Assembly: GCA_001438605.1 (NCBI GenBank)
Contig: LIDE01000017.1
Location: 1,513 to 65,512 of the forward strand
Direction of reading: 5' to 3'
Origin: SAR92 bacterium BACL16 MAG-120619-bin48
GTDB taxonomy: Bacteria > Pseudomonadota > Gammaproteobacteria > Pseudomonadales > Porticoccaceae
DNA: 64,000 nt
Under the pieces are notes generated by a model. That model saw nothing but the letters and a program-made list of their open reading frames with translations. It was not told the DNA's origin and did not search any database. The position numbers and the translations under genes are program-made. Positions 3,607 to 40,977 of this stretch are shown piece by piece; the first letter of the stretch is position 1, and each line of letters begins with the position of its first letter.

Positions 3607-3608
3607 GA

Positions 3609-4355
3609 TTAACCAAGCAGCGCTTTGTAGGCCCGCACTGCGCTGGCCATGCCCATCTCCAGCGAGTCGACGGTAAATGCGTGACCAATCGAGACCTCTA
3701 GCAGATCGGGAATAGTGGCGAATTTTCCGAGATTTAGCAGGTTAAGGTCATGCCCAGCGTTCACACCCATGCCCAATTCTGTGGCTAACATCGCTGCCGC
3801 AAAATGCTGTTGAAAAAGGGGCTCTAGCTGCTCAGTGCCCCACGCTGCGGCGTAGGGGCCGGTGTAAAGTTCGATGCGGTCGGCACCGACCTGCTTTGCG
3901 AGTTTTATCTGCTCAAGATCAGGGTCCATAAACAGGCTGACGCGCATGCCACGGTCTTGCAGTCGTTGGATAATTGGTTGCAGGGCATCCGCTGAATGGG
4001 TTAGATCAAAGCCGTGATCAGAGGTTAATTGGTCGTCGCCATCCGGCACTAATGTGCATTGATCCGGCTGCGTTTCTTCGACTAATTCAAGAAAGCCAGG
4101 ATAGCTGCCCATAGCCGGGGCGAAGGGATTGCCCTCAACATTGAATTCAATTCCCGCGACAGGGTTGACCAATGCTGCTAAGCGGCGCACATCGTCGGGA
4201 CGAATATGGCGCTGGTCTGGACGTGGGTGAACAGTGATGCCGTCGGCGCCATGGTCCATGCAGAGCTGCGCATACCTGACCACATCTGGATAATTACCCT
4301 CCCGCGAATTTCGAATTAGGGCTACTTTGTTGAGGTTAATACTTAAAGCAGTCAT
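3609..4355 (-). CDS. pdxJ: Pyridoxine 5'-phosphate synthase
   Basis: GITVHPRPDQRHI, RVSLFMDPD, ADRIELYTGPYA, VNAGHDL and EVSIGH motifs. Confidence 0.93.
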   Translation of the reverse strand: MTALSINLNKVALIRNSREGNYPDVVRYAQLCMDHGADGITVHPRPDQRHIRPDDVRRLAALVNPVAGIEFNVEGNPFAPAMGSYPGFLELVEETQPDQCTLVPDGDDQLTSDHGFDLTHSADALQPIIQRLQDRGMRVSLFMDPDLEQIKLAKQVGADRIELYTGPYAAAWGTEQLEPLFQQHFAAAMLATELGMGVNAGHDLNLLNLGKFATIPDLLEVSIGHAFTVDSLEMGMASAVRAYKALLG

Positions 4356-4399: not shown

Positions 4400-5047
4400 T
4401 TATTTAATCGGAACAGGCATATTACGCGGTGGTTCAGGTTTTGGCTCTGGCAGCGCTTGCCAAGCGGCGGGATTGAGTAGGCGAGCGGTCAAAATACGCA
4501 CTGGTTCAACCGGTACATTTTGATAGTCACCAACAGTCTCAACATCAACTGCGGCAATCTTGTCGACCACTTGCATACCTGAAATAACAGCGCCAAACAC
4601 AGCATAACCGGCACTGGATTGGCTGCGATTGAGTGATTTATTGTTGCGATGATTGATAAAGAACTGCGCTTGAGCGCTGTCCGGATCAGCGGTGCGCGCC
4701 ATAGCAACGGTGCCGCGAGTGTTTTTTAGGCCATTCCCCGCTTCATTCACAATCGAAGGGCGACCCGATTCGCGATAGCTGAGATCGAATGTATGACCGC
4801 CAGTCTGAATCATAAAGCCGCGGATGACGCGATGAAAAATCAGGCCATCATAGTGAAAGTTATTGGTGTTTTTGATGAAGTTGTCGACAGTGACTGGCGC
4901 TTTATCAGCGTAAAGCTCTATCACAATATCACCCAAATCCGTGTGCAACAGCACCTGTGGGTTTTCCGCTTGCGCCTGTGTTAGAAAAACACAGCAGCTC
5001 AAAAACAGCGAGGCCGCCAGTCGAGTCACTTTGCGAATTACCATCAC
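4400..5047 (-). CDS. ppiA: Exported cyclophilin-type peptidyl-prolyl isomerase
   Basis: Signal-peptide-like N-terminus; FHRVIRGFMIQTGG, GTVAMART, QFFIN and GYAVFG motifs. Confidence 0.88.
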   Translation of the reverse strand: MMVIRKVTRLAASLFLSCCVFLTQAQAENPQVLLHTDLGDIVIELYADKAPVTVDNFIKNTNNFHYDGLIFHRVIRGFMIQTGGHTFDLSYRESGRPSIVNEAGNGLKNTRGTVAMARTADPDSAQAQFFINHRNNKSLNRSQSSAGYAVFGAVISGMQVVDKIAAVDVETVGDYQNVPVEPVRILTARLLNPAAWQALPEPKPEPPRNMPVPIK

Positions 5048-5066
5048 AAACTCCTTGGGTAGATTG

Positions 5067-5798
5067 CTACTGCCATTCAGAGAAACGTTTTCTGCCGCGC
5101 AGTTTTGGAATAAGAACCACTAAGATAGCGCCGAGAAACACAGTCAAACCGCCATACAAAAACGATTCATTGCGTTTGTCTTTTTGCAGGTCATCCACGT
5201 TGGCTTTCAGCGCGTCATTTTCACGCTGCAACATATGATTGTTTTTCACTAGCTGATCGTTCTGATTGTTTAGAGCAATCGCATCAGAAGAAATATTTTT
5301 AATCTCCGCTAACTCGCCGAACAACGCATCTTTGGCGCCTTCAGAGCTGTCCAGCTGACCGCGAATGGCTTTTATTTCCTCACGTGCTTCCGCCAGCATT
5401 TTCTCCAGTGCGGCATTGCGCTCGCCTAGGGTGCCCGACTGCGCTTCTATTTTGCTTAATTTAATGCGAGCGATAGGCTCTTGAACAAGGTATTGCTGCT
5501 CCATCCAGCCCTCAATACCCTTGTCGGTAATAACGTGTCCCCAGCCATCCACCGTCTCAATAAAGGTCATCTTAGTGCCGCTTTTAATTCCGCGATGAAC
5601 AATAGTGCAGCGTGAGCAGGGCGTTTCTCTCAGCGGTACGCGGAATACATCAGTCACATAAGCCACCGTGCCCTCTGGGTAGACAACTCTGGACGTGGCC
5701 TCGGCCACATCGTCATCGTCAGCCTCAGATTGTTGAGCAGTCGCGACAGAGGCCAGCGAGACAAAAAGCAGTGAAAATGCCAAAACAAAATAATTCAT
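5067..5798 (-). CDS. SH3-domain protein with coiled coil and C-terminal TM (TIGR04211/YgiM-like)
   Basis: Signal peptide, YVTDxFRVPLR, GxEGWM, coiled coil, C-terminal TM and RKRFSEW tail. Confidence 0.8.
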   Translation of the reverse strand: MNYFVLAFSLLFVSLASVATAQQSEADDDDVAEATSRVVYPEGTVAYVTDVFRVPLRETPCSRCTIVHRGIKSGTKMTFIETVDGWGHVITDKGIEGWMEQQYLVQEPIARIKLSKIEAQSGTLGERNAALEKMLAEAREEIKAIRGQLDSSEGAKDALFGELAEIKNISSDAIALNNQNDQLVKNNHMLQRENDALKANVDDLQKDKRNESFLYGGLTVFLGAILVVLIPKLRGRKRFSEWQ

Positions 5799-5883
5799 GA
5801 TTTTATCGGATGATCAGTTGAACGAAGGGGGATGATACCCTGATCAACGGCAAATGATAACCACTTGCCGCCTAAACAGAGTC

Positions 5884-6183
5884 TCAGGGTAAAACTTTCT
5901 TCAAGGGCTTCACGGTTACTTTTTTGTAGACCCCTGCGGCCATATAGGGATCGGCGTCAGCCCACTGCTGAGCATCGGCCAGCGAACTAAATTCGGCGAT
6001 CACCAAACTGCCGGTAAACCCGTCATCACCGGGATCCAGCGCGTCGATAGCTGGGTGCGGGCCTGCCACAAACAGTCGACCATCAGTTTTTAACTGCTGT
6101 AATCGTTCCAAATGTGCAGGGCGAGCCTGCATTCTCTTCGCGAGGCTGTTGTCAACGTCCTCACTCATAATCGCGTACCACAT
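5884..6183 (-). CDS. yciI: YciI family protein
   Basis: [22 protein letters not shown] and ADPY motifs. Confidence 0.92.
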
Positions 6184-6194
6184 AGGTGTCAGCC

Positions 6195-6908
6195 TTATTT
6201 TTGTTTAATAATCTCTTCTAGCGGAATGCCAGTAATGCGCTTGATCCCGCGAAATAGGTAAAACATGTCGCCAATCATAACGATCATGGCGGGCACGGCA
6301 ATCACCGGAAAACTGAGTGCTGTCATCTTCCCCAATTGTTCGTTAAATGCCTGTGTGCCGGGGTCGGCGGTTAACATATACACCGCGAGAAAATAATTCA
6401 GTGCCGCCGATAATAGAAATGATCCCGCCAATATCCATGAAGCGTTTACCAGCAGCCGATTAAATTCTGGTTGACGGTTATTGGCTTGCAGCGCCGCCGC
6501 AATTTTGTCGGTCTCAAGAATAGCGTCATTGAGCAGCAACGTGTGAATCAGCGGTTGCGATGTTTTCAGCGACACCAGTGTTGCAGCGCCAAAGAGCAGC
6601 GGGATGCTGGCCTCTTTAATCGCAATGTAAATAGCGTCTAGCTCCATCAAGCTAATGCCGCCCGTCATGCTGACGCTAACAATGCCCAGCGCGGAGAAAA
6701 AGTTGAAAGTGCCGCGACTCAGAAAATCCCTCACTCCGTAAATAATCGGGAACGACAGCGCCACAATAATCGCCAACTTGATACCGAGATACTCTTCGCC
6801 ACTCAGTTTCGTCAGCACCAGAGTAGGGATCAGAATATTGAAGGCCATGTTTAACAACAGGCTCTCTTTTTTCGCAGGTTTTGTCGCGCCGTCAATGGTG
6901 CTAGTCAT
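6195..6908 (-). CDS. Inner-membrane protein (VC0807-like; at the ispZ/yciB position)
   Basis: Multiple TMs, IKEA motif, [16 protein letters not shown]; lies next to yciI. Confidence 0.7.
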
Positions 6909-25900: not shown

Positions 25901-26185
25901 ATGACTAAATCTGAATTAATCGAAAAAATTGCCGCCAGCCAAGACCAACTCCCCCCCAAGGACGTTGAACTCGCCGTAAGAATGATTCTAGAGCGCATGA
26001 CCCAAGCACTGGTCAACAACCAGCGCACAGAAATCCGTGGCTTTGGCAGCTTCTCCCTCCACTATCGCGCCCCACGCGTTGGCCGCAACCCAAAGACCGG
26101 CGACGCCGTCGATCTCACCGGCAAATATGTACCGTACTTCAAGCCTGGCAAAGAACTGCGCGCCCGCGTCAACGACAGCCTCTAA
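25901..26185 (+). CDS. ihfB: Integration host factor beta
   Basis: [16 protein letters not shown] and GRNPKTG; follows rpsA. Confidence 0.95.
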
Positions 26186-26278
26186 CCGCAGACTAGACCG
26201 CCCATCCACAAACTTTAACAGCGGCCCCGCAACTATTTCGGTTACTATGCCTAGGCACTAAATACCGGAGAGTAGAAG

Positions 26279-28420
26279 ATGCCCGCAGAGATAAAAACCC
26301 ACTACCGCGCCTGCAACCTATGTGAAGCCATCTGTGGCCTTGAGATAAAAACTCAGGGCGACCAAGTCCTCTCCATCAAAGGCGACAAAAACGACCCCCT
26401 CAGTCGCGGATATCTGTGCCCCAAGGGCACCGCCATGGAAGACATCTACACCGACCCCGATCGACTGCGGCAGCCCGTCAAGCGCGTCGGAGACACCTGG
26501 CTCCCCATTAGTTGGGACGAAGCCTTTGCCACCGTTGCGGAAAAAATTGTCGCCGTCCAACAGCAGCACGGCGCAGACAGCGTCGCCTTTTATGCCGGCA
26601 ACCCCAACGTCCACAACTATGGCAGCATGACCCACGCCAGCGTGCTGCGCAAAGCCGTGCAGAGTAAAACGCACTTCTCCGCCACCAGCCTCGACCAGCT
26701 ACCGCACCACCTAACCTCATTTACGATGTACGGTCATCAGTCATTGATACCCGTGCCCGACATTGACCACACCAACTACATGCTGATCATCGGCGGCAAC
26801 CCGCTCGCCTCAAACGGCAGCATCATGACCGTCCCCGACGTTCCCAAGCGACTCAAAGCCATTCAGCAGCGCGGCGGCCGCTTTATCGTCATCGATCCAC
26901 GGCGCAGCGAAACCGCCGAAATAGCCGACCAGCACCTCTTTATACGCCCCGGCAACGACGCCTACCTGCTCATGGCCATGATCCACACATTATTTGCAGA
27001 AAACCTCGTCAACACCGGCCACCTCAGCCACCTCCTAGTCGGACTCGACGACGTACGCAGCCTCAGCCAACCCTTCACCCCAGAACTCGCCGAACAGCGC
27101 ACCGGCATCGCCGCCGACCAAGTTCGCCAGCTCGCCCGCGACATGGCCACCATCGACGGCGCCGTCTGCTACGGCCGCATGGGCGTCTCCGTGCAAGTGT
27201 TTGGCACCCTCTGTCAGTGGGCCATCCAAATCATCAACATACTCACCCACTCGCTGGACGTGCGCGGCGGCCTCATGCTGACATCCCCAGCCTTTGGTTA
27301 CGTCAAACCGGGAGAATCCGGCGCCGGCCACTTCGCCGCCTTCCACAGCCGCATCAGTGGCCTGCCAGAATTCGCCGGCGAACTGCCCAGCACCGTCATG
27401 GCCGAAGAAATGCTCACTGAAGGAGAAGGGCAGATCCGCGCCCTCATCACCACCGCCGGCAACCCCGTACTCTCAGCACCCAACGGCCAGCAAATGGACG
27501 AGGCCCTGAGCGGACTCGACTTCATGGTCTGTCTCGACTTCTACATCAACGAAACCACCCAACACGCAGACATTATTCTGCCGCCCACCAGCGCCCTCGA
27601 ACACGACCACTACGACCTCGCGTTTCACCGCCTCGCCGTGCACAACACCGCCCGCTTCAACGAGCCCGTGTTCCAACCCGCCCCGGGCGCACTGCACGAC
27701 TGGGAAATTTTTAACGGCCTCGGCCTCGCCATCGCCGCGCGCAAAGGCATAGAGCTCAAGCCGCTGCCCTCACCAGACAAACTAATCGACATGGGCATAC
27801 AGCGCGGCCCCTACAGCGCCGCAGCAGGGCACCCCCTCGCACTCACCCTCGACAAAATCAAGCAGCACCCCCACGGCATCGACATTGGACGCCTCGAACC
27901 CAGCCTCCCCGAGCGCATCTGCACCCACGACGGGCAAATACAACTGCTCGCAGACTACCTGCGACAAGACATCGCCCGCCTTGAAAACACCCCAGCGGCC
28001 ACCGACAAAGACGAACTCCTGCTCATCGGACGCCGCCACATCCGCAGCAACAACTCCTGGATGCACAACGCCCATCGACTCGTCAAAGGCAAACCGCGCT
28101 GGCAACTGCTCATGCACCCCGACGACCTCGCCGCCCGCAACCTCACCCACGAATCACAGGTGCGCATCGAGTCCCGCGTAGGCAGCGTGCAAACCCAAGT
28201 ACTCGCCAGCGACGAAGTTATGCGCGGCGTCGTCAGCCTGCCCCATGGTTGGGGACACAAACGCAAAGGCGTCAGCCTAAGTATCGCCACCGAGCAGGAC
28301 GGCGTCAGCTGCAACGACCTAACCGACAACAAACTTATCGACCAAGCCAGCGGCAATGCAGCCCTCAACGGCGTCCCAGTTAAAATTTATCCAGTACAAG
28401 CACGAGGCGCACAAGCATGA
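26279..28420 (+). CDS. Cytoplasmic molybdopterin (bis-MGD) oxidoreductase with a [4Fe-4S] site
   Basis: CNLCEAICG...CPKG, DPDRLRQP, VIDPRR and C-terminal GRRH...MHPDD...VSLPHGWG. No Tat signal. Confidence 0.88.
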   Translation: MPAEIKTHYRACNLCEAICGLEIKTQGDQVLSIKGDKNDPLSRGYLCPKGTAMEDIYTDPDRLRQPVKRVGDTWLPISWDEAFATVAEKIVAVQQQHGADSVAFYAGNPNVHNYGSMTHASVLRKAVQSKTHFSATSLDQLPHHLTSFTMYGHQSLIPVPDIDHTNYMLIIGGNPLASNGSIMTVPDVPKRLKAIQQRGGRFIVIDPRRSETAEIADQHLFIRPGNDAYLLMAMIHTLFAENLVNTGHLSHLLVGLDDVRSLSQPFTPELAEQRTGIAADQVRQLARDMATIDGAVCYGRMGVSVQVFGTLCQWAIQIINILTHSLDVRGGLMLTSPAFGYVKPGESGAGHFAAFHSRISGLPEFAGELPSTVMAEEMLTEGEGQIRALITTAGNPVLSAPNGQQMDEALSGLDFMVCLDFYINETTQHADIILPPTSALEHDHYDLAFHRLAVHNTARFNEPVFQPAPGALHDWEIFNGLGLAIAARKGIELKPLPSPDKLIDMGIQRGPYSAAAGHPLALTLDKIKQHPHGIDIGRLEPSLPERICTHDGQIQLLADYLRQDIARLENTPAATDKDELLLIGRRHIRSNNSWMHNAHRLVKGKPRWQLLMHPDDLAARNLTHESQVRIESRVGSVQTQVLASDEVMRGVVSLPHGWGHKRKGVSLSIATEQDGVSCNDLTDNKLIDQASGNAALNGVPVKIYPVQARGAQA

Positions 28421-29265
28421 GCAACCAACTGAGAATCTTTAAAGACGCCACCGCCATCATGACCGGCGGCGCCTCCGGCATAGGTCGCGCCATGGCCCTC
28501 GAACTCGTCAGCCGCGGCTGCACCGTCGTCCTCGCCGACCGCCAAATCGCCCTCGCCGAAGAACTTGCCGCCAGCATCGTAGCCAGCGGCGGCAACGCCT
28601 GGGCCAGAGAACTCAACGTCTGCGACTACAACGCCGTAAAAGTCCTCGTCGAAGAAACCGTCGCCAAAACCGGCCGACTCGACTACATGTTCAACAACGC
28701 CGGCATCGCCGTCGGCGGCATGACCCATGAATACCAAGTCAGCGACTGGGACACAACCATGGACGTCAACGTGCGCGGCGTCACCAACGGCGTCCAAGCC
28801 TGCTACAGCCTCATGGTCGAGCAGGGCTTCGGCCACATCGTCAACACCGCCTCCATGGCCGGCCTCGTCCCCGCCACCAACGCCGTCGCCTACAGCACCA
28901 GTAAATTTGCCGTCGCAGGCCTCTCCCAGTCCCTGCGCATCGAAGCCGAATACCGCGGCGTGCGGGTCAGCGCCCTCTGCCCCGGCGCCATTCAAACCCC
29001 CATTTTAACCGGCGGCGAATTTGGCAAACTCGGCTCAGGCATCACCAAAGAGCAAGCCGAAAAATTCTGGGTTGCCCTAAAACCCATGGCCCCCGAAGCG
29101 TTTGCCCGCCAGGCCATCGACAAAGTCGCGAAAAATCACGCCCTCATTATCGTGCCCAGCTGGTGGCAAAAAGCCCACCTCGTATTCCGCCTATTACCAA
29201 GCCTCTGGTTTGCCTGGTCCAAGAAAGAAATGATTCGCTCAATGCGAATTTTTCAGCAGAAATAA
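28417..29265 (+). CDS. Short-chain dehydrogenase/reductase
   Basis: TGGASGIG, NNAG and YSTSK; ATGA overlap with the upstream gene. Confidence 0.9.
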   Translation: MSNQLRIFKDATAIMTGGASGIGRAMALELVSRGCTVVLADRQIALAEELAASIVASGGNAWARELNVCDYNAVKVLVEETVAKTGRLDYMFNNAGIAVGGMTHEYQVSDWDTTMDVNVRGVTNGVQACYSLMVEQGFGHIVNTASMAGLVPATNAVAYSTSKFAVAGLSQSLRIEAEYRGVRVSALCPGAIQTPILTGGEFGKLGSGITKEQAEKFWVALKPMAPEAFARQAIDKVAKNHALIIVPSWWQKAHLVFRLLPSLWFAWSKKEMIRSMRIFQQK

Positions 29266-29339
29266 TCGCCAGTCACCGCATAACCCCCGTCAAAACACCC
29301 CAGTCGCCTCCCAGCTAACCCCACGGAGCGACTGGCCAA

Positions 29340-29381
29340 CACCCAACATCAAGCACCCAACACCCAACATCAAGCACCCAA
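29340..29381 (+). repeat. Heptamer mosaic repeat, (CACCCAA CATCAAG CACCCAA) x2
   Basis: Six consecutive 7-mers read directly. Confidence 0.85.
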
Positions 29382-29511
29382 TTCCCACACTAGCGCCCAA
29401 AGCCAACAATCGTCGGCATCCCCATATGCTATAACTTAACCATTCACGGAACCGCTCTGGGGGAAAAGCCTGGCCAAGTCGTCTACTACTGTCCGGGCTC
29501 ACGATAAAATC

Positions 29512-29943
29512 ATGGATGAAGACCAACCAGTGAACAGCAAAGACAGCATTCACAGCGTATTTATGGCACTGCGCAGCAGCCTCGCCCGCGCCGTCATGGG
29601 CATGGTGCCGCCCCGCGAAGTTGAAGACATCGTGCAAGAAACCTACGTTCGCGTCTGCCAAGTCAAAGACTGGGATCAAATACGCCAGCCGCGCTCCTAC
29701 CTATTCCGCACCGCCCGCAACCTCGCCCTCGACTACCGCAAACGCTTCGAAACCAAATACACCGACAGCATTGACGACGAAGGCGTCGAAGCCCTCGTCG
29801 ACGGATTAAACGTCGCCGACGGCACCTTCGAACAAGCCGCCTCCAACCAAGAGTTCGCCATCTTTTGCGAAGCCGTGCCAAATCTGGTCGCTCCTTCACA
29901 GGAGCGTGGATTGAAACCGCGAACTGTGGGGCGCGCCAGTTGA
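29512..29943 (+). pseudogene. FecI-like ECF sigma factor truncated before region 4; the ORF reads through into the CRISPR array
   Basis: Region-2 motifs EDIVQETYVR and YLFRTARNLALD. Sigma-like sequence ends at EFAIFCEAV (29877). The last 21 codons come from the junction, repeat 1 and spacer 1. Confidence 0.8.
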
Positions 29944-30047
29944 ATTATCGCGTCGCTCCTTCACAGGAGCGTGGATTGAAACACTAGAATATCGAGAAGC
30001 ATCTGAGTTTGATCAGGTCCCTCCGTCACAGAAGTGAGGATTGCATC
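29887..30047 (+). CRISPR. Orphan mini CRISPR array with a type I-C-like repeat (GTCGCTCCTTCACAGGAGCGTGGATTGAAAC)
   Basis: Identical 31-nt repeats at 29887-29917 and 29952-29982; degenerate third copy at 30017-30047 (7 mismatches). Two 34-nt spacers. Internal stem CGCTCC/GGAGCG and ATTGAAAC 3' end. Confidence 0.92.
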
Positions 30048-30131
30048 GCCGTAACTCAACTTTACCCGCGAAATAGTTTTTGAAGAGCTGGTCCCTGTCC
30101 GCCTGACGTCGGCAAGCCGAACACCAACCAC

Positions 30132-32162
<2,031 letters not shown>

Positions 32163-32169
32163 TCAGCGG

Positions 32170-35052
32170 TTATGCCATTTCAGCGATAACGGTGCGCTTC
32201 TCTTTCAACTGGATAACCGAGCTTTCGAATTCACTGAGTTTTTGGCGCTCTTTGGCGACGACGTCGGCGGGTGCGTTGTCGACAAATTTTGCGTTGCTCA
32301 GTTTGTTGGCGAGTTTGGCGGCTTCGGTTGAGTTCTTTTCAATTTCGCGATCGAGACGCGCGAGTTCTGCGCCGATGTCGATTGAGCCGGCCATGGGTAC
32401 GAGTATTTCGAGGTCACCGGCGAGCGCTGTGGCTGAGGGCGGTGCGTCGGCGGGGTTGTCGAGCCATGTGACGGATTCAAGATTGGCCAGTTTGCTGAGG
32501 AATTGGCGGTTGTCTTGCAGTCGCTGCTGGTCGTTTTTGTCGCCTTTGGTGAGGTAGAGCGGCAGCGCTTTGGCGGGGGAGATGTTCATTTCGCCACGAA
32601 TATTGCGCACGCCGAGGATAACTTTCTTCAGCCATTCAATATCGGCCAGTGCGGCGCTGTCGATTTTGCTGTGATCGGCGACGGGGAATCTCTGCAGCAT
32701 AATGGTGTCGCCGTCTGCCTTGAGTTCAACGCCGGCGAAGGGGGCGATGGTTTGCCAGATCTCTTCGCTGATAAATGGCAGCATTGGGTGGGCGAGGCGG
32801 AGGGTGGATTCGAGTACGCGCACGAGGGTGCGGCGGGTGCCTTTTTTCAGTTCGGGGTCGCCATTTTCGTCCCACAGTACTGGCTTTGAGAGTTCGAGGT
32901 ACCAGTCGCAGTAGTCGTTCCAGACAAAGTCGTAGAGTGCTTGTGCGGCGAGGTCGAAGCGGTAGCTGTCGATGGCGGCGCTGACGTCGATTTCGGCTTG
33001 TTGCAGGCGTGAGACGATCCAGCGGTCGGCGAGGCTGAGTTTGTAATCGGTGCTGCCGTCTTGACCACAGTCTTGGCCTTCGGCGTTCATCAATACGTAG
33101 CGCGAGGCGTTCCAAATTTTGTTGCAGAAGTTGCGATAGCCTTCGAGTCGCTTCATGTCCCAGTTGATGTCGCGCCCGGTGGAGCAGAGGGCGCAGAGGG
33201 TGAAGCGCAGTGCGTCTGAGCCGTGGGGTTCGATGCCATCGGGGAATTGCTTGCGGGTGCGCGCGGCAATTTTTTCGGCGAGCTGGGGCTGCATCATGTT
33301 GCCGGTGCGTTTTTCAACCAGTGTGGCGATGTCGATGCCGTCGATCATGTCTAAGGGGTCGAGTACGTTGCCCTTGGATTTGGACATTTTCTGACCCTGT
33401 TCGTCGCGAATCAAACCGGTGACGTAGACGGTTTTGAAGGGGACTTGCGGGGCGCCGTTCTCGTCTTTGATCAGGTGCATGGTCATCATGACCATTCGCG
33501 CTACCCAGAAGAAGATAATGTCGAAGCCGGTGACGAGCACGCTGGTTGGGTGGAAGGTTTTTAGGCGCTCGGTTTGCTCGGGCCAGCCTTGGGTGCCGAA
33601 GGTCCAGAGGGCGGATGAGAACCAGGTGTCGAGGACGTCTTCGTCGCGGGTCAGCGGGGTGTCGCCGAGGGCGTATTTTTCGCGCACATCGGCTTCGCTG
33701 TTGCCGACATAGGCTTTGCCTGCGTCGTCGTACCATGCGGGAATTTGGTGGCCCCACCAGAGTTGTCTGGAGATGCACCAGTCTTGAATATTGCGCATCC
33801 ACGAGAAGTACATGTTTTCGTACTGTTGGGGAACAAATTTGATGCGTCCATCTTCGACGGCTTCGATGGCGGGGCCGGCAAGTTTTTTGGCGTCGACATA
33901 CCATTGGTTGGTGAGTAGGGGTTCGATCACTACGCCGCCACGATCGCCATAGGGGACGGTCATGTCGTTTTCTTCTATGCGTTCGAGCAGGCCCAAGGCC
34001 TCAAAGTCGGCGACGATTTCGCGGCGGGCGGCAAAGCGTTCCATGCCGCGGTATTTTTCAGGCAGGCTGTTGTCGATATCGTGGTTGTCGCTGCCGTCGC
34101 TGTTGACGCATTCTGCGGTTTGGCGAATGTCGGCGTTGATGGTCAGAATGTTGATCATCGGCAGCTTTTGGCGCTGGCCAACTTCGTAGTCGTTGAAGTC
34201 GTGGGCGGGGGTTATTTTTACGCAGCCGGTGCCTTTTTCCATGTTGGCGTATTCATCGGCAACAATTGGAATTAGGCGGCCGAGCAAGGGCAGTTCGACG
34301 TGTTGGCCAACCAGATGGACGTAGCGTTCGTCTTCTGGATTCACGGCAACACCGGTGTCGCCAAGCATGGTTTCTGGGCGTGTGGTGGCGACGATAATAT
34401 AGTCTTTGCCGTCGAGGGTTTTGGCGCCGTTGGCGAGGGGGTAGCGCAGGTACCACATCTTACCTTTGACTTCGCGGTTTTCAACTTCGAGGTCGGAGAT
34501 GGCGGTGTGTAGTTTGGGGTCCCAGTTGACGAGGCGTTTGCCACGGTAGATGAGGCCGTCGTTGTAGAGGCGCACAAAGGCTTCTTGAACGGCGGCGCTG
34601 AAGCCTTCGTCCATGGTGAAGCGTTCGGTGTCCCAGTCAACGGAGTTGCCGAGGCGACGCATCTGTTTGGTGATGGTGCCGCCAGATTCTTCTTTCCATT
34701 CCCAGATTTTTTCAATAAATTTTTCGCGGCCTAAGGCTTCGCGTCCGGGCTGGCCTTCGCCGTCGAGTTTGCGTTCGACGACCATCTGTGTGGCGATGCC
34801 GGCGTGGTCGGTGCCCACTTGCCAGAGTGTGTTTTTGCCTTTCATGCGGTTGTAGCGAATTAGGGCGTCCATAATGCCGTTTTGCAGTGCGTGGCCGATG
34901 TGCAGACTGCCTGTGACATTGGGTGGTGGAATGACGATGCTGTAGGCTTCAGTGTCGTTTCCGGCTGGGGCTTTGGGGGCAAAATAGCCGCGCTTTTCCC
35001 AGATCTTGTACCATTTGGTTTCAATGTCTTTTGGCTGGAATGTCTTTTCCAT
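32170..35052 (-). CDS. valS: Valine--tRNA ligase
   Basis: [13 protein letters not shown] and KMSKS motifs; C-terminal coiled coil. Confidence 0.98.
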
Positions 35053-35170
35053 TATGGTTTTCTATTTCCGATTTTGATGGCCAGCTGTCGATGGCGATTG
35101 GCAATTTTGGGGTAGCCGTGGATTATAGGTGCTGGGGGCTTTTGTCGCTAGGGTCTGTTGCTGTTTTGCG

Positions 35171-35581
35171 TTAACTGTCTTGCTTAAAACGTTCGATGAC
35201 GATGGTGCGCAACTTCTCGCGCAGCAATTGTTCGACTTTCGGGCGCAGGCGGCTGAGGAGTTTGTTGACGACGATGTCGATCTGCTCGTCGCTCACGGGT
35301 TGGCCAGTGGGCTGGCGGTCAAATAAATGCTGTTGCGCTTGGTTGAAGGAGTCGCGCAGCTGCTGTTCGGCGTGTATTTCTTTGTCGACAGTGTCGGTGA
35401 GAATGGGTATTTCTAAATTGTGTATGCCGTCGTCGGTGAGGCTGTGGGGTAGGCTGTCGAGATCAAACGTTGTTGGGTTTGCGTTGGGCAACAAATTGGT
35501 TTGCAGAGAGTAGAGGTCGTCGAGAAGATCGTCGAGATCGGGTATATCGGCTTCGCGGTGTTTTTTTTCGTCTGCGCTCAT
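35171..35581 (-). CDS. Hypothetical acidic protein (typical holC-valS intervening gene)
   Basis: 136-aa ORF overlapping the holC stop; EIPILTDTV and C-terminal helix. Confidence 0.65.
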   Translation of the reverse strand: MSADEKKHREADIPDLDDLLDDLYSLQTNLLPNANPTTFDLDSLPHSLTDDGIHNLEIPILTDTVDKEIHAEQQLRDSFNQAQQHLFDRQPTGQPVSDEQIDIVVNKLLSRLRPKVEQLLREKLRTIVIERFKQDS

Positions 35582-36006
35582 GGCTTAAACGTGTTGCTCA
35601 AATCATGGAAGTTCAGAGGATAGCCGCGTTCTTTGTAAAAGGCGAAGTTTTCGCGTTTGACTTGCGCGTACTCGGGTTCGCTGTAAATCACTTCCATCAC
35701 GCGGTCGAAGCGGCTGAACCAATTGGGAATTGCTGCCTGCAGATTTATCAAGATGCCGTGATGATCGCTGGGTGTTGCCTCGGCGCTAATGGCGACAGGG
35801 TGATGCTGGCTGCCAATGCCGTGGGGTATAAACGCGCTCGCTTGAAAGCTCCACAGCAGTTTGTCGAGCTGTTCGGCGGTGTCGCTGTCGGGAACGAGAC
35901 AGAGGACGGTTTGTTTTGCGTTGACGGCCTTTTGCACGAGCTGACAGACAAGTGCCAAGGCTACGGTTAGGTCACCTTGGCACTTGTAGAACGAGACATT
36001 AGTCAT
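35578..36006 (-). CDS. holC: DNA polymerase III subunit chi
   Basis: LDKLLWSF...FIPH and FSRFDRVME; located between pepA and valS. Confidence 0.92.
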   Translation of the reverse strand: MTNVSFYKCQGDLTVALALVCQLVQKAVNAKQTVLCLVPDSDTAEQLDKLLWSFQASAFIPHGIGSQHHPVAISAEATPSDHHGILINLQAAIPNWFSRFDRVMEVIYSEPEYAQVKRENFAFYKERGYPLNFHDLSNTFKP

Positions 36007-36022
36007 TGATTGGGCGCTGTCC

Positions 36023-37480
36023 TTAACCGACTTTGCTGCGCAGATAGTCCATCAGCATTGGTACTGGACGGCCAGTGGCGCCTTTCTCACCGCCGGAGAC
36101 CCACGCGGTGCCTGCGATGTCGAGGTGCGCCCAGCGATACTTTTTGGTAAAGCGCGCGAGGAAGCAGGCGGCGGTAATGGTGCCGGCCTGTGGGCCGCCG
36201 ATGTTGGCTATGTCGGCGAAGTTACTTTTCAGTAAGTCGTCGTATTCGTCCCACAGTGGCAGGCGCCATGCGCGGTCGCCGCTGCGTGTTCCGCTGTTGA
36301 GAAGCTCTTCCGCGAGGCTGTCGTCGTTGGACAGTAAACCGGCCCCAACTTTGCCCAGTGCGCCGATCACGGCACCCGTGAGGGTGGCTATGTCGATAAC
36401 GGAGTCGGGCTTGAAGCGTTCGGCGTAGGTGAGGGCGTCACAAAGAATTAGGCGGCCTTCGGCGTCGGTGTTGAGCACTTCAATGGTCTGACCCGACATG
36501 CTAGTCACAACGTCGCCGGGCTTGGTGGCGTGGCCGTTGGGCATATTTTCAACGGCAGGGATAATGCCGACAACGTTGATGGGCATTTGTGTTTCGATCA
36601 GCGCGTTGATCACGCCGATCACAGAGGCGCCACCACACATGTCGTATTTCATTTCGTCCATACCGGCGCCTGGCTTGAGGCTGATACCGCCAGAGTCGAA
36701 GGTGACAGCTTTGCCGACCAGTACAACCGGTTTGGCGGTGACTTTGGCACCTTGATATTTGATCACAATTAAGTGGCCGGGCTGGTCGGATCCAGCGCTC
36801 ACAGAGAGCAGTGATCCCATTTTTAACGTTTTCATCTGCGCTTCGCTGAGCACTGTGGTAGTCACTTTCGGTTGACCTTTGGCCAGTGCTTTGGCCTGTG
36901 TCGCGAGGTAGCTGGGGGTGCAGATATTGGCTGGCAGGTTGCCGAGCTGTCGCGCAGCGTTCATGCCGTTGCCGACGGCAGAACCGTAGCTGAGGCCTTT
37001 GTTGGCGGCTGCGGTATTGGCTTTACTGGTTGTCCAGTAGGTGAGGCCTTTGAATTTTTTCGCGTCGGCTTTGCGGCCGTTGTCGTATTTGTAGCTGGCG
37101 GTTTGCAGGCTGCGCGCGACGATGCTGGCTTCCCACTCTGCGTCGTCAGATAGGCCTTCACCGACCCAAACTGCTTTTGCGCTGGGTGTTTTTAACAGCG
37201 CTGAGGCACCGGCTTCAATCACTTTTATCATTTTTTGCGGGCTGTCTGCACCGTCGGTGCCGAGCAGGATAATGCGCTTGCCGTTGACGCCGGGAATGTG
37301 CAATACCAAGGTTTCTGCGCTCTTGCCTTTGAAGTCTCCAGACTTGATTAACGAGGAGATGGCGCCGTCCAACGATTTGTCGAGGGCGTCTGCGCTCGCT
37401 TTTAGTTGTGGGCCTGTCGGTAGAATGAGAGAATCGGCTTTAATGTTTAACAGCTGTGCGGAAGATGCGGTAAAATCCAT
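36023..37480 (-). CDS. pepA: Leucyl aminopeptidase
   Basis: GKAVTFDSGGISLK, MKYDMCG and NTDAEGRL. ATG start at 37480. Confidence 0.95.
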   Translation of the reverse strand: MDFTASSAQLLNIKADSLILPTGPQLKASADALDKSLDGAISSLIKSGDFKGKSAETLVLHIPGVNGKRIILLGTDGADSPQKMIKVIEAGASALLKTPSAKAVWVGEGLSDDAEWEASIVARSLQTASYKYDNGRKADAKKFKGLTYWTTSKANTAAANKGLSYGSAVGNGMNAARQLGNLPANICTPSYLATQAKALAKGQPKVTTTVLSEAQMKTLKMGSLLSVSAGSDQPGHLIVIKYQGAKVTAKPVVLVGKAVTFDSGGISLKPGAGMDEMKYDMCGGASVIGVINALIETQMPINVVGIIPAVENMPNGHATKPGDVVTSMSGQTIEVLNTDAEGRLILCDALTYAERFKPDSVIDIATLTGAVIGALGKVGAGLLSNDDSLAEELLNSGTRSGDRAWRLPLWDEYDDLLKSNFADIANIGGPQAGTITAACFLARFTKKYRWAHLDIAGTAWVSGGEKGATGRPVPMLMDYLRSKVG

Positions 37481-37585
37481 GTTTGCTCCGAGATAGTGTA
37501 GTGAGTAAAGTGTTTTACTAAGTTTGAGTGCGTGTCGAACGATACCATTTTGTCCTACAACACCCAAGGGTTATAACCTTTTCCT

Positions 37586-38680
37586 GTGATTATTTTTCGC
37601 TATCTTTTCCGTGAGATTTTCTCTTCGACCATCGCAGTCTGCGCAATATTGCTGCTGGTTTTGATGAGTGGTCGCTTTGTTCGCTACCTTGCTAAAGCGG
37701 TCACGGGTGATATGGAATCGGGCGTTATTTTTGCGGTGATCGGCTATCGGATTCCTGGCTTTCTCGAGACAACCTTGCCATTGGCGTTTTTTCTTGCGGT
37801 ACTGCTCTGCTTTGGCCGCCTCTATGTGCAGAATGAAATGACGGTGCTGAAGGCGTGCGGTGTGTCTGAAAGACGTTTGCTGGGCTACGCCTTGGTGATG
37901 GCGACATTTTTTGCGCTGATTGCAGGGTGGTTTAGCCTGTATTTGGCGCCCTCGGGCATGGCGAAGGCCGAGACCCTGTTTAAGGCTGAGCGCTCGCGCA
38001 GTGAGCTGGATAAGTTGATGCCGAAGAAGTTTTATTCCCTTGGTGGTGGTCGCGGTGTCACCTATGCCGAAGCTGTCACTGAAAATCGTGAGCTGGACGA
38101 TCTCTTTTTAGCTATGACTGCGGGTAGCAATGCAACCTCGGATCGCCGTTTAGTGCTGGTGGTGGCGGATAGAGGGCGGCAGCAAGATGCTATTGATAGT
38201 AAGGCGCGCTATTTAGTGCTCGACCGAGGCTACAGAATTGAGGGTATTCCGGGCAAGAACGATTACCAAATTACCCATTTTGAAGAGTATGGCTCTCGTC
38301 TGGAAGACAGTGAATCTGATGAGGAGAGAATTGAGATTGATGGAGTGACATCCTCTGCATTGCTGGCGTCGGACGACCCACAGTGGCAGGCGACCCTGCA
38401 GTGGCGGCTGTCGATTCCGCTGATGTTGATTGTGGTCACGATGTTGGCGGTGCCATTAAGTCGCGTGAATAACCGGCAAGGCCGATTTGGCAAGTTAATG
38501 CCGGTGATCTTTTTATACTTTATCTATTTGGTGGCACTTAATGCTATGCGCGACGCGATTGAGTCTGGCGCGGTGCCGGTGGCAGTGACGATGCTGCCCG
38601 TCCATTTGTTATTTTTGGCAGTTGCGGGTTTATTGTTTATCTCGGGTCAACCGAGGAAAGTTCGCGGGGTGAAAGCCTAA
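37586..38680 (+). CDS. lptF: LPS export ABC transporter permease LptF
   Basis: IIFRYLFRE, NEMTVLKACG and QWRLSIP; divergent from pepA. Confidence 0.93.
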   Translation: MIIFRYLFREIFSSTIAVCAILLLVLMSGRFVRYLAKAVTGDMESGVIFAVIGYRIPGFLETTLPLAFFLAVLLCFGRLYVQNEMTVLKACGVSERRLLGYALVMATFFALIAGWFSLYLAPSGMAKAETLFKAERSRSELDKLMPKKFYSLGGGRGVTYAEAVTENRELDDLFLAMTAGSNATSDRRLVLVVADRGRQQDAIDSKARYLVLDRGYRIEGIPGKNDYQITHFEEYGSRLEDSESDEERIEIDGVTSSALLASDDPQWQATLQWRLSIPLMLIVVTMLAVPLSRVNNRQGRFGKLMPVIFLYFIYLVALNAMRDAIESGAVPVAVTMLPVHLLFLAVAGLLFISGQPRKVRGVKA

Positions 38681-39747
38681 TGCGTCGTCTTTATTGGCAT
38701 GTGGGCTCCACTATTTTTGGCGCCATCGCCGTGGCTATGATTGTCTTGGTGGGGCTGGATGCGGTTGGGGCATTAATCGATGAGACGGGCGATATTACGG
38801 CCAACTATCGGTTTATCGATGCGCTTATTTATGTTGTTACCTATCTTCCTTCGAGAATGTATGAGTACACGCCCTTTGCCGCGTTGATTGGCTGTTTGGT
38901 GGGGCTTGGCTTGTTGGCGGGTAACAGTGAAATTATTGTGATGCGGGCGGCGGGCGTGTCGCCATTGCGTATTGTCGGTTTTGTGTTGCGGCCGGTAATG
39001 TTGGTTATTGCGGTCGTGATGGCAGTTGGTGAGTATTTTTCACCCTACCTCGATCAGCTCGCCGAAGGGCGGCGTGAGTATTTAATTAAGGGTGAGCAGG
39101 CCGCGGATTCGACGTCGGGTTTGTGGAGTCGAGAGGGCAACGAGTTTTTGCACTTTAATGCGGTGTTCCCCGGCGGTGTGCTCTATGGTGTTAGCCGTTA
39201 TGCGTTTGATGACGATAAAAAAATTGTGTCGGCGAGCTTTGCGTCGCGGGCTACCTTTAATGTGCGGGAAAAGTATTGGACGGAAGAAAACGTCTCGATT
39301 ACGCGCTTTTTAGAGGATAAAACAGAGACAGAAAAACAGGTAACGCGACGCTGGGACTCTGAGCTGACACCGGTGGTGTTGTCTTTACACGTGCTCCCTG
39401 AAGACTCGTTACCTATTTCGATCTTGTACAACTATATCCATTTCTTGAAGCAGCAGGGTGCTGACACCGTGGGCTATGAGGTTGCGTTTTGGCGCAAGGT
39501 TTTGCAGCCGCTGGTGATTTTGGGGTTGGTTGTTCTGGGTATTTCGTCGGTCTTCGGCCCGCTGCGGGACGCTACCATGGGGTTCCGAATTTTTATTGGC
39601 GTTATTGTGGGCGTCTCCTTCCGCATGATTCAGGATGTGCTTGGCCCGCTGAGTGTCGTCTTTGAGTTTCCGCCGCTGTTGGCAGTGATGCTGCCTATTG
39701 TGTTCTGTTTTGTCGTTGGGATTTATTTGCTGCGACGCAGTGGTTAA
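38680..39747 (+). CDS. lptG: LPS export ABC transporter permease LptG
   Basis: SEIIVMRAAG and FGPLR; follows lptF. Confidence 0.93.
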   Translation: MRRLYWHVGSTIFGAIAVAMIVLVGLDAVGALIDETGDITANYRFIDALIYVVTYLPSRMYEYTPFAALIGCLVGLGLLAGNSEIIVMRAAGVSPLRIVGFVLRPVMLVIAVVMAVGEYFSPYLDQLAEGRREYLIKGEQAADSTSGLWSREGNEFLHFNAVFPGGVLYGVSRYAFDDDKKIVSASFASRATFNVREKYWTEENVSITRFLEDKTETEKQVTRRWDSELTPVVLSLHVLPEDSLPISILYNYIHFLKQQGADTVGYEVAFWRKVLQPLVILGLVVLGISSVFGPLRDATMGFRIFIGVIVGVSFRMIQDVLGPLSVVFEFPPLLAVMLPIVFCFVVGIYLLRRSG

Positions 39748-39834
39748 TGGCTGTTAGTGACGGGCTGTTAGTGAATGCCTGCTAGTGAATAAAAAGTTTG
39801 GCCAATCGGTAGCCCCTCCCCACACACAAGTCAC

Positions 39835-39865
39835 CGTTAACCTAATTGTATTATTATGGTTGACA
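39835..39865 (+). promoter_or_regulatory. BirA biotin operator
   Basis: GTTAACC-N15-GGTTGAC about 56 bp upstream of bioB, resembling the gammaproteobacterial BirA consensus TGTAAACC-N14/15-GGTTTACA. Confidence 0.8.
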
Positions 39866-39921
39866 GTCAGTTTCGCCTCTCTATGATAGCCCCCTGTATT
39901 AACCACAGGTGGAGCAGAACA

Positions 39922-40977
39922 ATGGCAGGGCATGACAAGGACGCAATTCGACACAATTGGACGCACGAAGAGGTTCTCGCGCTGTTTGACCAACCCTTCA
40001 ATGATCTGCTATTCGACGCGCAGGTCACCCATCGTCGCTATTTTAATCCCAACCGAGTGCAGCTCAGTACGTTACTGTCTATCAAGACTGGCGCCTGCCC
40101 AGAAGACTGCAAGTACTGTCCCCAGAGCGCGCGTTACGACACGGGCCTCGAAAAAGAGAAATTACTGCAAATTCAGCAAGTGATTGGGGCTGCCAAAGTT
40201 GCGAAAGAGAGCGGCTCAAGCCGTTTCTGCATGGGGGCGGCATGGCGCTCGCCGCACGACCGCGATATTCCGGCGGTGGCGGAAATGGTCCGTGAAGTTA
40301 AAGCCCTTGGCCTTGAAACCTGCATGACCCTTGGGATGTTGTCAGAGAGTCAGGCCGACGCGTTGGCCGAGGCGGGGTTGGATTATTACAACCACAACCT
40401 CGACACGTCGAAAGAATTTTACGGTGAGGTAATCACCACTCGCACCTATCAAGACCGTTTGAATACTCTCTCCCATGTGCGCAACGCTGGCATGAAAGTG
40501 TGTGCGGGCGGCATTGTTGGGATGGGTGAAGAGCAGCGCGATCGTGCGGGGTTGTTGATGGAGCTGGCGAACTTGCCGCGCCATCCTGAATCGGTGCCCA
40601 TCAATATGTTGGTGAAGGTAGCGGGAACGCCTATGGCCAATGAGGAGGATCTCGATCCTTTCGAATTTATCCGCACTATCGCTGCAGCGCGGTTGATGAT
40701 GCCACAGTCCTATGTGCGGCTGTCGGCGGGTCGCGAGGCGATGAATGAACAGATGCAGGCGCTGGCATTTATGGCGGGTGCCAATTCTATTTTTTACTGC
40801 GACAAATTACTCACCACAGCCAATCCCAAGGCCAATACCGATATGCAATTGTTCAGCCGTCTGGGCATCAAACCTGAGAGCTTCGAAGAGCGTCAGGGTC
40901 CCGCGGAGCAGGAAGCCGAGCTGGTGCAGCGCCTCGATGAGGCAAAAACCGATTCGCTGTTTTATCGGGCTGGCTAG
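39922..40977 (+). CDS. bioB: Biotin synthase
   Basis: CPEDCKYC radical-SAM motif, YNHNLDT and SVPIN. ATG at 39922 follows GGAG. Confidence 0.97.

What the first reader, a model, noticed from the sequence alone, without database searches (positions are those of the whole stretch)
29887..30047. Cas-less, leaderless type I-C mini CRISPR array about 160 bp from the skew pivot
Seen in sequence: two identical 31-nt repeats, one degenerate trailer repeat (GTCCCTCCGTCACAGAAGTGAGGATTGCATC) and two 34-nt spacers (CGCGAACTGTGGGGCGCGCCAGTTGAATTATCGC and ACTAGAATATCGAGAAGCATCTGAGTTTGATCAG). There are no cas genes in 64 kb and no AT-rich leader; a sigma-factor fragment occupies the leader side. Established: GTCGC...GGATTGAAAC hairpin repeats are typical of type I-C and are processed by Cas5d. 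Inference: this is the trailer end of a once larger array left by a deletion, or a retained mini-array supplying guides in trans. Its position beside the skew pivot suggests a recombination or integration hotspot.
Basis: partly seen in the sequence, partly recalled or inferred. Interest (0 to 1): 0.7.

Follow-up and report, generated by a model that had tools for sequence, protein, structure and literature searches.

The report
Orphan type I-C CRISPR remnant
This is a real but stranded piece of a CRISPR immune memory (two spacers) in a marine SAR92-clade bacterium with no cas genes; a deletion left it behind and it is still shrinking in wild strains, so it is an ordinary relic, though its decay is unusually well documented.

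Summary
Window 29887-30047 holds two identical 31-nt repeats, a degenerate third repeat and two 34-nt spacers. The repeat is letter-for-letter that of arrays in Alteromonas sp. a30, which carries a canonical type I-C cas operon. The window's genome (99.6% complete, SAR92 clade, Porticoccaceae) has no Cas1, Cas5, Cas9 or any I-C Cas protein, and no other array.

The left edge is a deletion scar. Conspecific strains (about 99% identical flanks) carry an intact 198-aa FecI-type sigma gene followed by fecR and a TonB-dependent receptor. Here the sigma gene stops at codon 122 and is joined, through 8 foreign bases, to a repeat.

The same junction occurs in hundreds of independent assemblies with 3, 2 or 1 spacers. 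A flank tree puts the 3-spacer form at the base, so units are being lost rather than gained.

In sister species the same site, just downstream of rep, holds type II-C or I-E CRISPR-Cas (some decaying), AbiE, toxin-antitoxin pairs, or nothing. It is a defence-island hotspot.

No spacer target was found. Verdict: an inert, decaying orphan array, a new member of a known kind. That a I-C cas operon once lay here is inferred, not shown.

The parts
29512..29878 (+). 5' part (codons 1-122) of a FecI-type ECF sigma factor gene: region 2 only, region 4 lost
   Evidence: Pfam finds Sigma70_r2 only. It is identical over these residues to the 198-aa intact alleles P0010 and P0015 of conspecific strains, which add Sigma70_r4_2 and are followed by fecR and a TBDR. 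DNA identity ends at 29878.
29879..29886 (+). 8-nt stub CAAATCTG, foreign to the sigma gene: the end of a lost spacer, or less likely of a leader
   Evidence: Alignment with the intact alleles L067 and L077. It does not resemble the ends of the Alteromonas I-C leaders (...GAAGGGGCA|GTCGC).
29887..29917 (+). CRISPR repeat 1 (canonical, 31 nt)
29918..29951 (+). Spacer 1 (34 nt), absent from the commonest allele of the species
   Evidence: No target in the own genome, phages, plasmids or IMG/VR.
29952..29982 (+). CRISPR repeat 2 (canonical, 31 nt); some strains carry a C>T change in the loop
29983..30016 (+). Spacer 2 (34 nt), the oldest spacer, present in every allele
   Evidence: No target found.
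30017..30047 (+). Degenerate trailer repeat (24 of 31 bases kept, hairpin lost)
30048..30131 (+). 84-nt trailer between the array and the rep stop codon; unlike the post-rep sequence of sister species
29512..29943 (+). Chimeric 143-aa ORF: sigma' read in frame through repeat 1 into spacer 1; a likely pseudogene product
   Evidence: Polymorphism in sigma' is 4 nonsynonymous to 1 synonymous, against 2 to 15 in rep.
30132..32162 (-). rep helicase gene, the conserved right anchor of the variable defence island
25901..26185 (+).
   Evidence: Pfam Bac_DNA_binding in the gene tables; for G109

Best explanation
The 161-bp element is the trailer-proximal remnant of a type I-C CRISPR array in a SAR92-clade species that no longer has any cas genes.

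How it arose. Shown: conspecific strains carry the undeleted left side, sigma(198 aa)-fecR-TonB receptor. Inferred: one deletion ran from codon 122 of the ECF sigma gene to a point 8 nt before a repeat. It removed sigma region 4, fecR, the TonB-dependent receptor, whatever lay beyond them (presumably the I-C cas operon and the leader), and the younger part of the array.

What happened next. Shown by alleles and a flank tree: the remnant began with three spacers and has since lost repeat-spacer units, most likely by recombination between identical repeats. This gave the 2-spacer form seen in the window and a 1-spacer form that is now the commonest.

Function. With no Cas5c, Cascade, Cas3 or Cas1-Cas2-Cas4 it can be neither processed, nor used, nor extended. 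At most it is transcribed passively as the 3' end of the truncated sigma transcript (inferred, untested). It persists because it is small and neutral.

Site. It lies in a hotspot just downstream of rep where defence systems come and go in this genus.
For: - Repeat identity and type: the exact 31-mer occurs in two arrays of Alteromonas sp. a30. That genome's cas3-cas5c-cas8c-cas7-cas4-cas1c-cas2 operon passes all NCBIfam cut-offs. The fold is as expected for I-C.
- No cas genes in a 99.58%-complete genome: PF09704 none, PF01867 none, TIGR01876 none. tblastn with seven I-C Cas proteins and with Cas9 found nothing below E = 0.5. There is no second array.
- Deletion scar: the 198-aa intact sigma alleles are identical over residues 1-121 and are followed by fecR and a TBDR, on contigs 98.7-99.2% identical in the shared flank. 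The breakpoint is at 29878/29879. The lost segment is nowhere else in the genome.
- Fixed junction with nested alleles: (spX, sp1, sp2), (sp1, sp2), (sp2) and one (spX, sp2) all share the same junction.
- Flank tree (5.7 kb, 24 strains): deletion-bearing strains sit on one side of a branch (support 91/88). The 3-spacer state is basal and paraphyletic. The 2-spacer and 1-spacer forms are each one clade. Rep variants agree.
- No new spacer appears in any strain, only SNPs in a repeat loop and in spacer 1.
- Same site and same geometry (trailer end facing rep) in sister species: II-C in G024; II-C with truncated cas9 in G109; II-C lacking cas1-cas2 in G035; I-E in G036.
- Orphan arrays are common and tend to be short (PMC7145637, PMC5294841).
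Against: - No I-C cas gene was found in any conspecific strain or in any of 79 species of the genus. That a I-C operon once lay here is therefore inferred.
- All 20 contigs with the intact sigma-fecR allele end inside or before the TonB receptor gene, so what lies between it and rep in those strains is unknown.
- The (spX, sp2) allele rests on one 1.2-kb metagenome contig and could be an assembly path error.
- Tree supports are moderate (82-93), and recombination is not excluded.
- The genome is a 111-contig draft, so a cas locus hidden in a gap cannot be strictly excluded.
Confidence: 0.85

Rival explanations
1. The array fragment never had a resident cas operon in this lineage. It arrived as a piece of foreign DNA (a partial array from a I-C carrier) through illegitimate or flank-homologous recombination that replaced the sigma 3' end-fecR-TBDR segment.
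For: No I-C Cas1 or Cas5c in 79 genus genomes, and I-C in only 1 of the sampled genomes of the same family, with a different repeat. The repeat is identical to that of a distant genus, Alteromonas. This I-C lineage is widely transferred: Cas5c is 75-87% identical across Legionella, Nitrincola, Alteromonas and Methylophilaceae. The trailer is unlike the post-rep sequence of sister species.
Against: The same site hosts complete CRISPR-Cas loci with the same trailer-to-rep geometry in sister species, and two of them show cas genes being deleted piecemeal. In-situ decay is therefore directly observed in the genus. Import of an array end without cas genes needs a more contrived event.
Confidence: 0.08
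2. The mini-array is kept because it works in trans: its transcript is processed and used by I-C Cas proteins encoded elsewhere (an unassembled locus, a plasmid, or a transiently acquired mobile I-C operon), or it acts as latent memory.
For: Two (in some strains three) repeats are still perfect and fold correctly. The sigma' promoter could drive read-through (inference). Compatible I-C operons circulate widely. There are zero segregating sites in repeat 1, spacer 2, the degenerate repeat and the trailer among 16 strains, though only about 1.8 were expected.
Against: No I-C protein in a 99.6%-complete genome or in the genus. There is no leader. The commonest allele has already lost two of three spacers. 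No spacer matches any phage, plasmid, IMG/VR contig, cas gene or the host genome.
Confidence: 0.04
3. Assembly artefact: a longer array with adjacent cas genes was collapsed, or the sigma/array junction is chimeric.
For: The genome is a fragmented draft (111 contigs). Arrays often break or collapse in metagenome assemblies; L044 has an N gap here, and Logan contigs L155 and L156 stop in the repeat.
Against: The identical junction occurs in several hundred independent assemblies made with different assemblers, on contigs up to 596 kb that run through to both flanks. The alleles differ by whole 65-bp units.
Confidence: 0.01
4. The element has been put to a new use: the repeat hairpins serve as a terminator or stabiliser between the convergent sigma' and rep genes, or the 143-aa sigma'-repeat fusion protein has a function.
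For: It sits between convergent genes. The fusion ORF is open and conserved in many strains.
Against: No terminator-like site was scored in or after the array. The fusion's C-terminus differs between alleles (143, 141 and 136 aa). sigma' shows 4 nonsynonymous to 1 synonymous polymorphisms. It lacks region 4, which an ECF sigma needs to bind the -35 element (established knowledge).
Confidence: 0.02

Closest known systems
Orphan (cas-less) CRISPR arrays regarded as remnants, such as the isolated array of Streptococcus pyogenes with no spacer turnover, and orphan arrays in general (PMC5294841; PMC7145637). From my own knowledge: the E. coli I-F CRISPR3/4 arrays and E. faecalis CRISPR2.
   Same: No cas genes in the genome. 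A short array. The same spacers across strains with no acquisitions. A degenerate terminal repeat. Interpreted as the leftover of a lost system.
   Different: Here the creating deletion is mapped to the base, because the undeleted allele still segregates in the same species. The loss of units (3 to 2, and 3 to 1 spacers) can be followed in natural populations. The array is also fused in frame to a truncated gene.
Canonical type I-C (Dvulg) CRISPR arrays, processed by Cas5c/Cas5d
   Same: A 31-nt repeat GTCGC...ATTGAAAC with a 7-bp stem and an 11-nt 3' tail; 34-nt spacers; identical to repeats in a genome with a full I-C operon.
   Different: No Cas5c, Cas8c, Cas7, Cas3, Cas1, Cas2 or Cas4 and no leader, so none of the three stages of immunity can run.
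Mini-arrays carried by phages and other mobile elements that borrow host Cas proteins (discussed in PMC7145637)
   Same: Very short arrays away from cas genes.
   Different: There are no mobile-element genes around it. It is chromosomal between housekeeping genes, it has no compatible host system to borrow, and its spacers have no identifiable target.
Defence islands and integration hotspots at conserved chromosomal sites
   Same: The ihfB-rep interval holds I-C (remnant), II-C or I-E CRISPR-Cas, AbiE, HigBA, HepT/MntA, or nothing in different SAR92 species and strains.
   Different: No integrase, tRNA gene or attachment repeats were seen at the borders. The right border is the rep stop codon itself.

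Membership tests
CRISPR array (generic) | Two or more near-identical direct repeats of 23-55 nt, regularly spaced by unique spacers of similar length | tested here: met
   Two identical 31-nt repeats and one degenerate repeat at a 65-nt period, with two unique 34-nt spacers.
CRISPR array (generic) | AT-rich leader with a promoter upstream of the first repeat | tested here: not met
   The upstream sequence is a coding fragment of an ECF sigma gene. No promoter-like site was scored in 29200-30250.
CRISPR array (generic) | Spacer content differs between strains through polarised gain | tested here: not met
   About 30 strains show only subsets of the same three spacers. The tree indicates loss rather than gain.
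Type I-C repeat class | Repeat sequence shared with arrays that accompany a I-C cas operon | tested here: met
   31 of 31 identity to arrays L003 and L004 of Alteromonas sp. a30. That genome's cas operon passes the Cas5c, Cas8c, Csd2 and Cas1c models.
Type I-C repeat class | Stem-loop followed by an 11-nt 3' tail that becomes the crRNA 5' handle | tested here: met
   The predicted minimum-free-energy fold is a 7-bp stem, a 4-nt loop and an 11-nt tail. Cleavage itself is not testable here.
Functional type I-C CRISPR-Cas system | cas3, cas5c, cas8c and cas7 present in the genome | tested here: not met
   PF09704 and TIGR01876 absent; tblastn with all four proteins found nothing below E = 0.8.
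Functional type I-C CRISPR-Cas system | Adaptation module cas1-cas2-cas4 | tested here: not met
   PF01867 absent; tblastn negative.
Functional type I-C CRISPR-Cas system | Array transcribed and processed into crRNAs | not testable with these tools
Functional type I-C CRISPR-Cas system | Spacers match mobile elements next to a 5'-TTC PAM | tested here: inconclusive
   No protospacer was found for any of the three spacers in IMG/VR (exact 34-mers and 22-mers), INPHARED phages, PLSDB (sp1 and sp2 only; spX not searched there) or the host genome. The PAM could therefore not be checked.
Orphan / remnant CRISPR array | No cognate cas genes anywhere in the genome | tested here: met
   on a 99.58%-complete draft.
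Orphan / remnant CRISPR array | Evidence of decay: a truncating rearrangement, degenerate repeats, loss of units | tested here: met
   Deletion breakpoint; degenerate third repeat; 3-, 2- and 1-spacer alleles with 3 ancestral.

The most novel reading that the evidence does not exclude
The orphan array is not simply junk. Its perfect repeats, read through from the sigma' promoter, would be a latent immune memory that becomes usable whenever one of the widely circulating, compatible I-C cas operons re-enters the rep hotspot. A related population-level reading is that the deletion allele swept through the species because a single event removed a TonB-dependent receptor (a possible phage entry port) together with a costly CRISPR-Cas system.
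Probability: 0.07. Interest if true: 0.6.

Novelty: new member of a known kind. Interest (0 to 1): 0.3.

Why it matters
Orphan arrays are common, but how they arise is usually guessed. Here the steps can be read from natural populations of an abundant marine bacterium:
- the undeleted allele, the exact breakpoint, and the later unit-by-unit shrinkage;
- sister species caught at other stages of CRISPR-Cas decay at the same chromosomal hotspot.

This makes a tidy case study of CRISPR-Cas turnover in streamlined bacterioplankton. It also warns annotators that a well-formed I-C array does not imply immunity. It reveals no new mechanism.

Tried and rejected
- Spacer targets. I searched exact 34-mers and 22-nt 5' segments of sp1, sp2 and spX in IMG/VR, blastn against INPHARED phages and PLSDB (the query covered sp1 and sp2, not spX), the host genome, and cas loci to look for anti-cas spacers. 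Only chance-level hits came back.
- Walking from the intact sigma allele to rep. All contigs end in the TonB receptor. Full-length homologues are at most 75% identical and sit in other contexts.
- Walking from the rep side through Rep variants. P0268 contigs stop in the repeat. P0265 turned out to be a sister species with AbiE or an empty site.
- Finding SAR92 I-C Cas proteins through Cas5c homologues. The search returned thousands of 75-87% identical hits across classes, none labelled SAR92 or Porticoccaceae.
- L044 looked like a shorter allele, but the difference is a scaffold gap of Ns.
- The 'ATC' seen 3-5 nt before each repeat is not seen in the Alteromonas arrays, so I treat it as chance.
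- The 8-nt stub is not a I-C leader end, judged against three Alteromonas leaders.
- Rfam gives only sub-threshold CRISPR-DR9 hits.

Full report
**1. The observation.**
- The two canonical repeats are identical. No 31-mer within 3 mismatches occurs in 100 shuffles of the window.
- The third copy keeps 24 of 31 bases in exact 65-nt register.
- The canonical repeat folds into a 7-bp stem, a 4-nt loop and an 11-nt 3' tail; the degenerate copy has lost the stem.
- These are the only copies in the 2.53-Mb, 99.58%-complete genome. A k-mer scan of all 111 contigs found no other array.

**2. Type.** The exact 31-mer occurs in only one other species-representative genome of the 185,579-species collection searched, Alteromonas sp. 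a30, in two arrays.
- That genome carries cas3-cas5c-cas8c-cas7-cas4-cas1c-cas2 beside a third array with a near-identical repeat. All seven proteins pass the NCBIfam cut-offs, including the I-C-specific Cas5c, Cas8c/Csd1, Cas7/Csd2 and Cas1c models.
- Together with the fold and the 34-nt spacers, this places the repeat in the I-C class. Rfam gives only sub-threshold CRISPR-DR9 hits.

**3. No machinery.** The window's genome has none of the following:
- a match to PF09704 (Cas5), PF01867 (Cas1) or TIGR01876 (Cas5c);
- a tblastn hit below E = 0.7 to any of the seven Alteromonas I-C proteins;
- Cas9.

The positive controls (Alteromonas, G024, G036) were found by the same searches.

**4. The organism.** Source names on homologues ('Porticoccaceae bacterium', 'SAR92 clade bacterium H231/H246'), and the match of G024's contig length to H231, place the genome in the SAR92 clade. 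It is an abundant marine gammaproteobacterial group with genomes of about 1-3 Mb in this set.

**5. The left edge is a deletion scar.** ORF 29512-29943 starts as a FecI-type ECF sigma factor with region 2 only. It then runs in frame through repeat 1 into spacer 1.
- Its 90%-identity cluster holds 198-aa members (P0010, P0015). These are identical over residues 1-121 and continue with a normal region 4.
- They lie on contigs from ENA, Logan and NCBI assemblies with the same left neighbours (cmk, rpsA, ihfB, molybdopterin oxidoreductase, SDR) at 98.7-99.2% nucleotide identity. That is the same species. On these contigs the sigma gene is followed by fecR (339 aa) and a TonB-dependent receptor.
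- DNA identity between the two alleles ends at window 29878. The next 8 nt (CAAATCTG) belong to neither the sigma gene nor the repeat.
- They do not resemble the ends of I-C leaders in Alteromonas. The likeliest reading is the tail of a lost spacer, which means the array was once longer.
- The lost sigma 3' end, fecR and receptor are nowhere else in the genome.

**6. Not an artefact, and frozen.** The chimeric 143-aa ORF occurs letter for letter in 90 index blocks of public assemblies, on contigs up to 596 kb.
- All 14 loci fetched through Rep or through the 143-aa ORF show the same junction, and all but L044, which has a gap there, the same two spacers. The only differences are SNPs: C>T in the loop of repeat 2, and C>T at spacer 1 position 1.
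- One apparent shorter allele (L044) is only a scaffold gap.

**7. An allelic series.**
- A metagenome scan for an extra repeat upstream of spacer 1 found L065. It has the same junction but three spacers, with a new leader-side spacer spX.
- The protein cluster shows the same thing by its C-termini. The 141/140-aa forms are spX, sp1, sp2 (about 22 contigs). The 143-aa forms are sp1, sp2. The 136-aa forms are sp2 alone, listed in 349 index blocks and therefore the commonest.
- One short contig carries spX, sp2, an internal loss that polarised acquisition cannot produce. The caveat is that it is a 1.2-kb MEGAHIT contig.

**8. A maximum-likelihood tree** of 5.7 kb of left flank from 24 strains was rooted on the intact-sigma strains.
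- All deletion-bearing strains sit on one side of a branch (support 91/88).
- The 3-spacer state is basal and paraphyletic: L065 branches first, and a 3-spacer clade is sister to the 1-spacer clade.
- The 2-spacer strains form one clade (93/93).
- The simplest history is one deletion, a 3-spacer remnant, then two independent losses of units. Gain would require the same spacers to be acquired several times. Rep protein variants agree.
- Polymorphism in sigma' is 4 nonsynonymous to 1 synonymous, against 2 to 15 in rep. This fits a pseudogene, although the numbers are small.

**9. The site is a hotspot.** In the genus (79 species) only four genomes have Cas1, and three of these loci lie directly downstream of rep with the degenerate (trailer) repeat facing rep, as here.
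- G024: type II-C (cas9 1069 aa, cas1, cas2, 36-nt repeats). Its orthologue of this sigma gene lies about 22 kb further along the same interval.
- G109: the same II-C array with cas1-cas2, but only the last 285 residues of Cas9.
- G036: a complete I-E operon, a two-repeat array and a HepT/MntA pair.
- G035 has four II-C repeats next to rep, abutting a Cas9 C-terminal fragment, and no Cas1 in the genome.
- G016 has HigBA and an in-frame fusion of the TonB receptor N-terminus to an aldehyde dehydrogenase C-terminus, then fecR and the sigma gene.
- The nearest sister species (Rep 92.6% identical) has either AbiEi/AbiEii plus a 95-aa aldehyde dehydrogenase fragment, or an almost empty 585-bp rep-ihfB spacer.

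Defence systems of several kinds therefore enter this interval and are eroded by deletions. The window's array is one such erosion product. The I-C type itself is sporadic in the order (23 of 401 genomes) and found in one other genus of the family, with a different repeat and not next to rep. Its Cas5c is 75-87% identical across several orders, as expected for a frequently transferred module.

**10. The skew pivot.** The composition profile shows mirror-image GC and AT skew on either side of about 30000. Genes left of the array run on the + strand and rep and valS on the - strand. An earlier follow-up on this genome concluded that the flip is neither origin nor terminus. The hotspot is shown by comparison of genomes, not by the skew.

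**11. Spacers.** None of the three spacers has a credible match in IMG/VR (full length or the first 22 nt), INPHARED phages, the host genome or the cas loci collected here; sp1 and sp2 were also searched in PLSDB without a match, spX was not. The TTC PAM could not be tested.

**12. What remains inferred.** No I-C cas gene was seen in this species or genus. What lies between the TonB receptor and rep in intact-sigma strains could not be reached, because the look-ups were exhausted and every contig ends in the receptor gene. A foreign array fragment imported without cas genes is therefore not excluded (about 8%).

**13. Verdict.** This is a genuine type I-C array remnant, orphaned by a mapped deletion, inert and still shrinking. 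The literature already describes orphan arrays as frequent, short and probably degrading (PMC7145637, PMC5294841). It is a new member of a known kind. Its value lies in the unusually complete natural record of its decay and in the rep-adjacent defence hotspot.

Noticed in passing
window 25901-30131 (ihfB to rep) and loci L038, L060, L061 (G024), L062 (G109), L064 (G036), L136 (G035), L039 (G016), L157-L162: The ihfB-rep interval is a defence-island hotspot in the SAR92 genus. Different species hold type II-C, I-E or I-C (remnant) CRISPR, AbiE, HigBA, HepT/MntA, or an almost empty site. The right border is at the rep stop codon, and no integrase was seen.
   Followed up: partly
L062 (G109) 3351-4208 and L136/L154 (G035:C68:9108-9554): Two sister species carry type II-C loci in decay. 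G109 keeps the array, cas2 and cas1, but only the last 285 residues of Cas9. G035 keeps four repeats abutting a Cas9 C-terminal fragment and has no cas1 in the genome.
   Followed up: partly
L039 (G016) 4874-6694, minus strand: A 606-aa in-frame fusion of a TonB-dependent receptor N-terminus (STN + Plug) to the C-terminal third of an aldehyde dehydrogenase. It is another deletion scar in the same island. A 95-aa Aldedh fragment sits at the same place in the nearest sister species (L157-L159).
   Followed up: partly
window 26279-29265: The molybdopterin oxidoreductase and SDR genes next to sigma' show unusually many nonsynonymous polymorphisms among strains (9 of 21 and 5 of 11 segregating sites, against 2 of 17 in rep). 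This may mean relaxed constraint on the whole island.
   Followed up: no
window 29336-29377: A perfect 21-nt tandem duplication, CCAACACCCAACATCAAGCAC, in the SDR-sigma intergenic region. Some strains differ from the window by a 17-nt length difference within the 5.7-kb flank; where it lies was not determined.
   Followed up: no
own genome C12:50158-50298: A 143-bp patch in a paralogous TonB-dependent receptor is 95% identical to the receptor gene lost in the deletion, while the rest of the two genes is only about 40% identical at protein level. This may be gene conversion between paralogues, and it may be why assemblies of the intact allele break there.
   Followed up: no
L039 3920-3990, L062 850-900, L064 (just after the rep stop), L135, L139: A REP-like palindromic element (TGTCATCCCGACAG...GAGGGATC) follows the rep stop codon in several sister species and forms tandem arrays in G023 and G026. 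It is absent from the window.
   Followed up: no
L062 (G109) 1580-1711: One repeat-spacer unit of the II-C array is duplicated exactly, including a repeat variant (C>A).
   Followed up: no
L003, L004, L006 (Alteromonas sp. a30): One I-C cas operon serves three arrays on three contigs, with two repeat variants (31 nt and 32 nt). All three have highly similar roughly 150-nt leaders.
   Followed up: no
window 26000-40000: The coding strands of the genes on both sides of the array are strongly C- and A-rich (GC skew about -0.25/+0.2, AT skew about +0.22/-0.25), more than in the rest of the window. The cause was not examined here.
   Followed up: no
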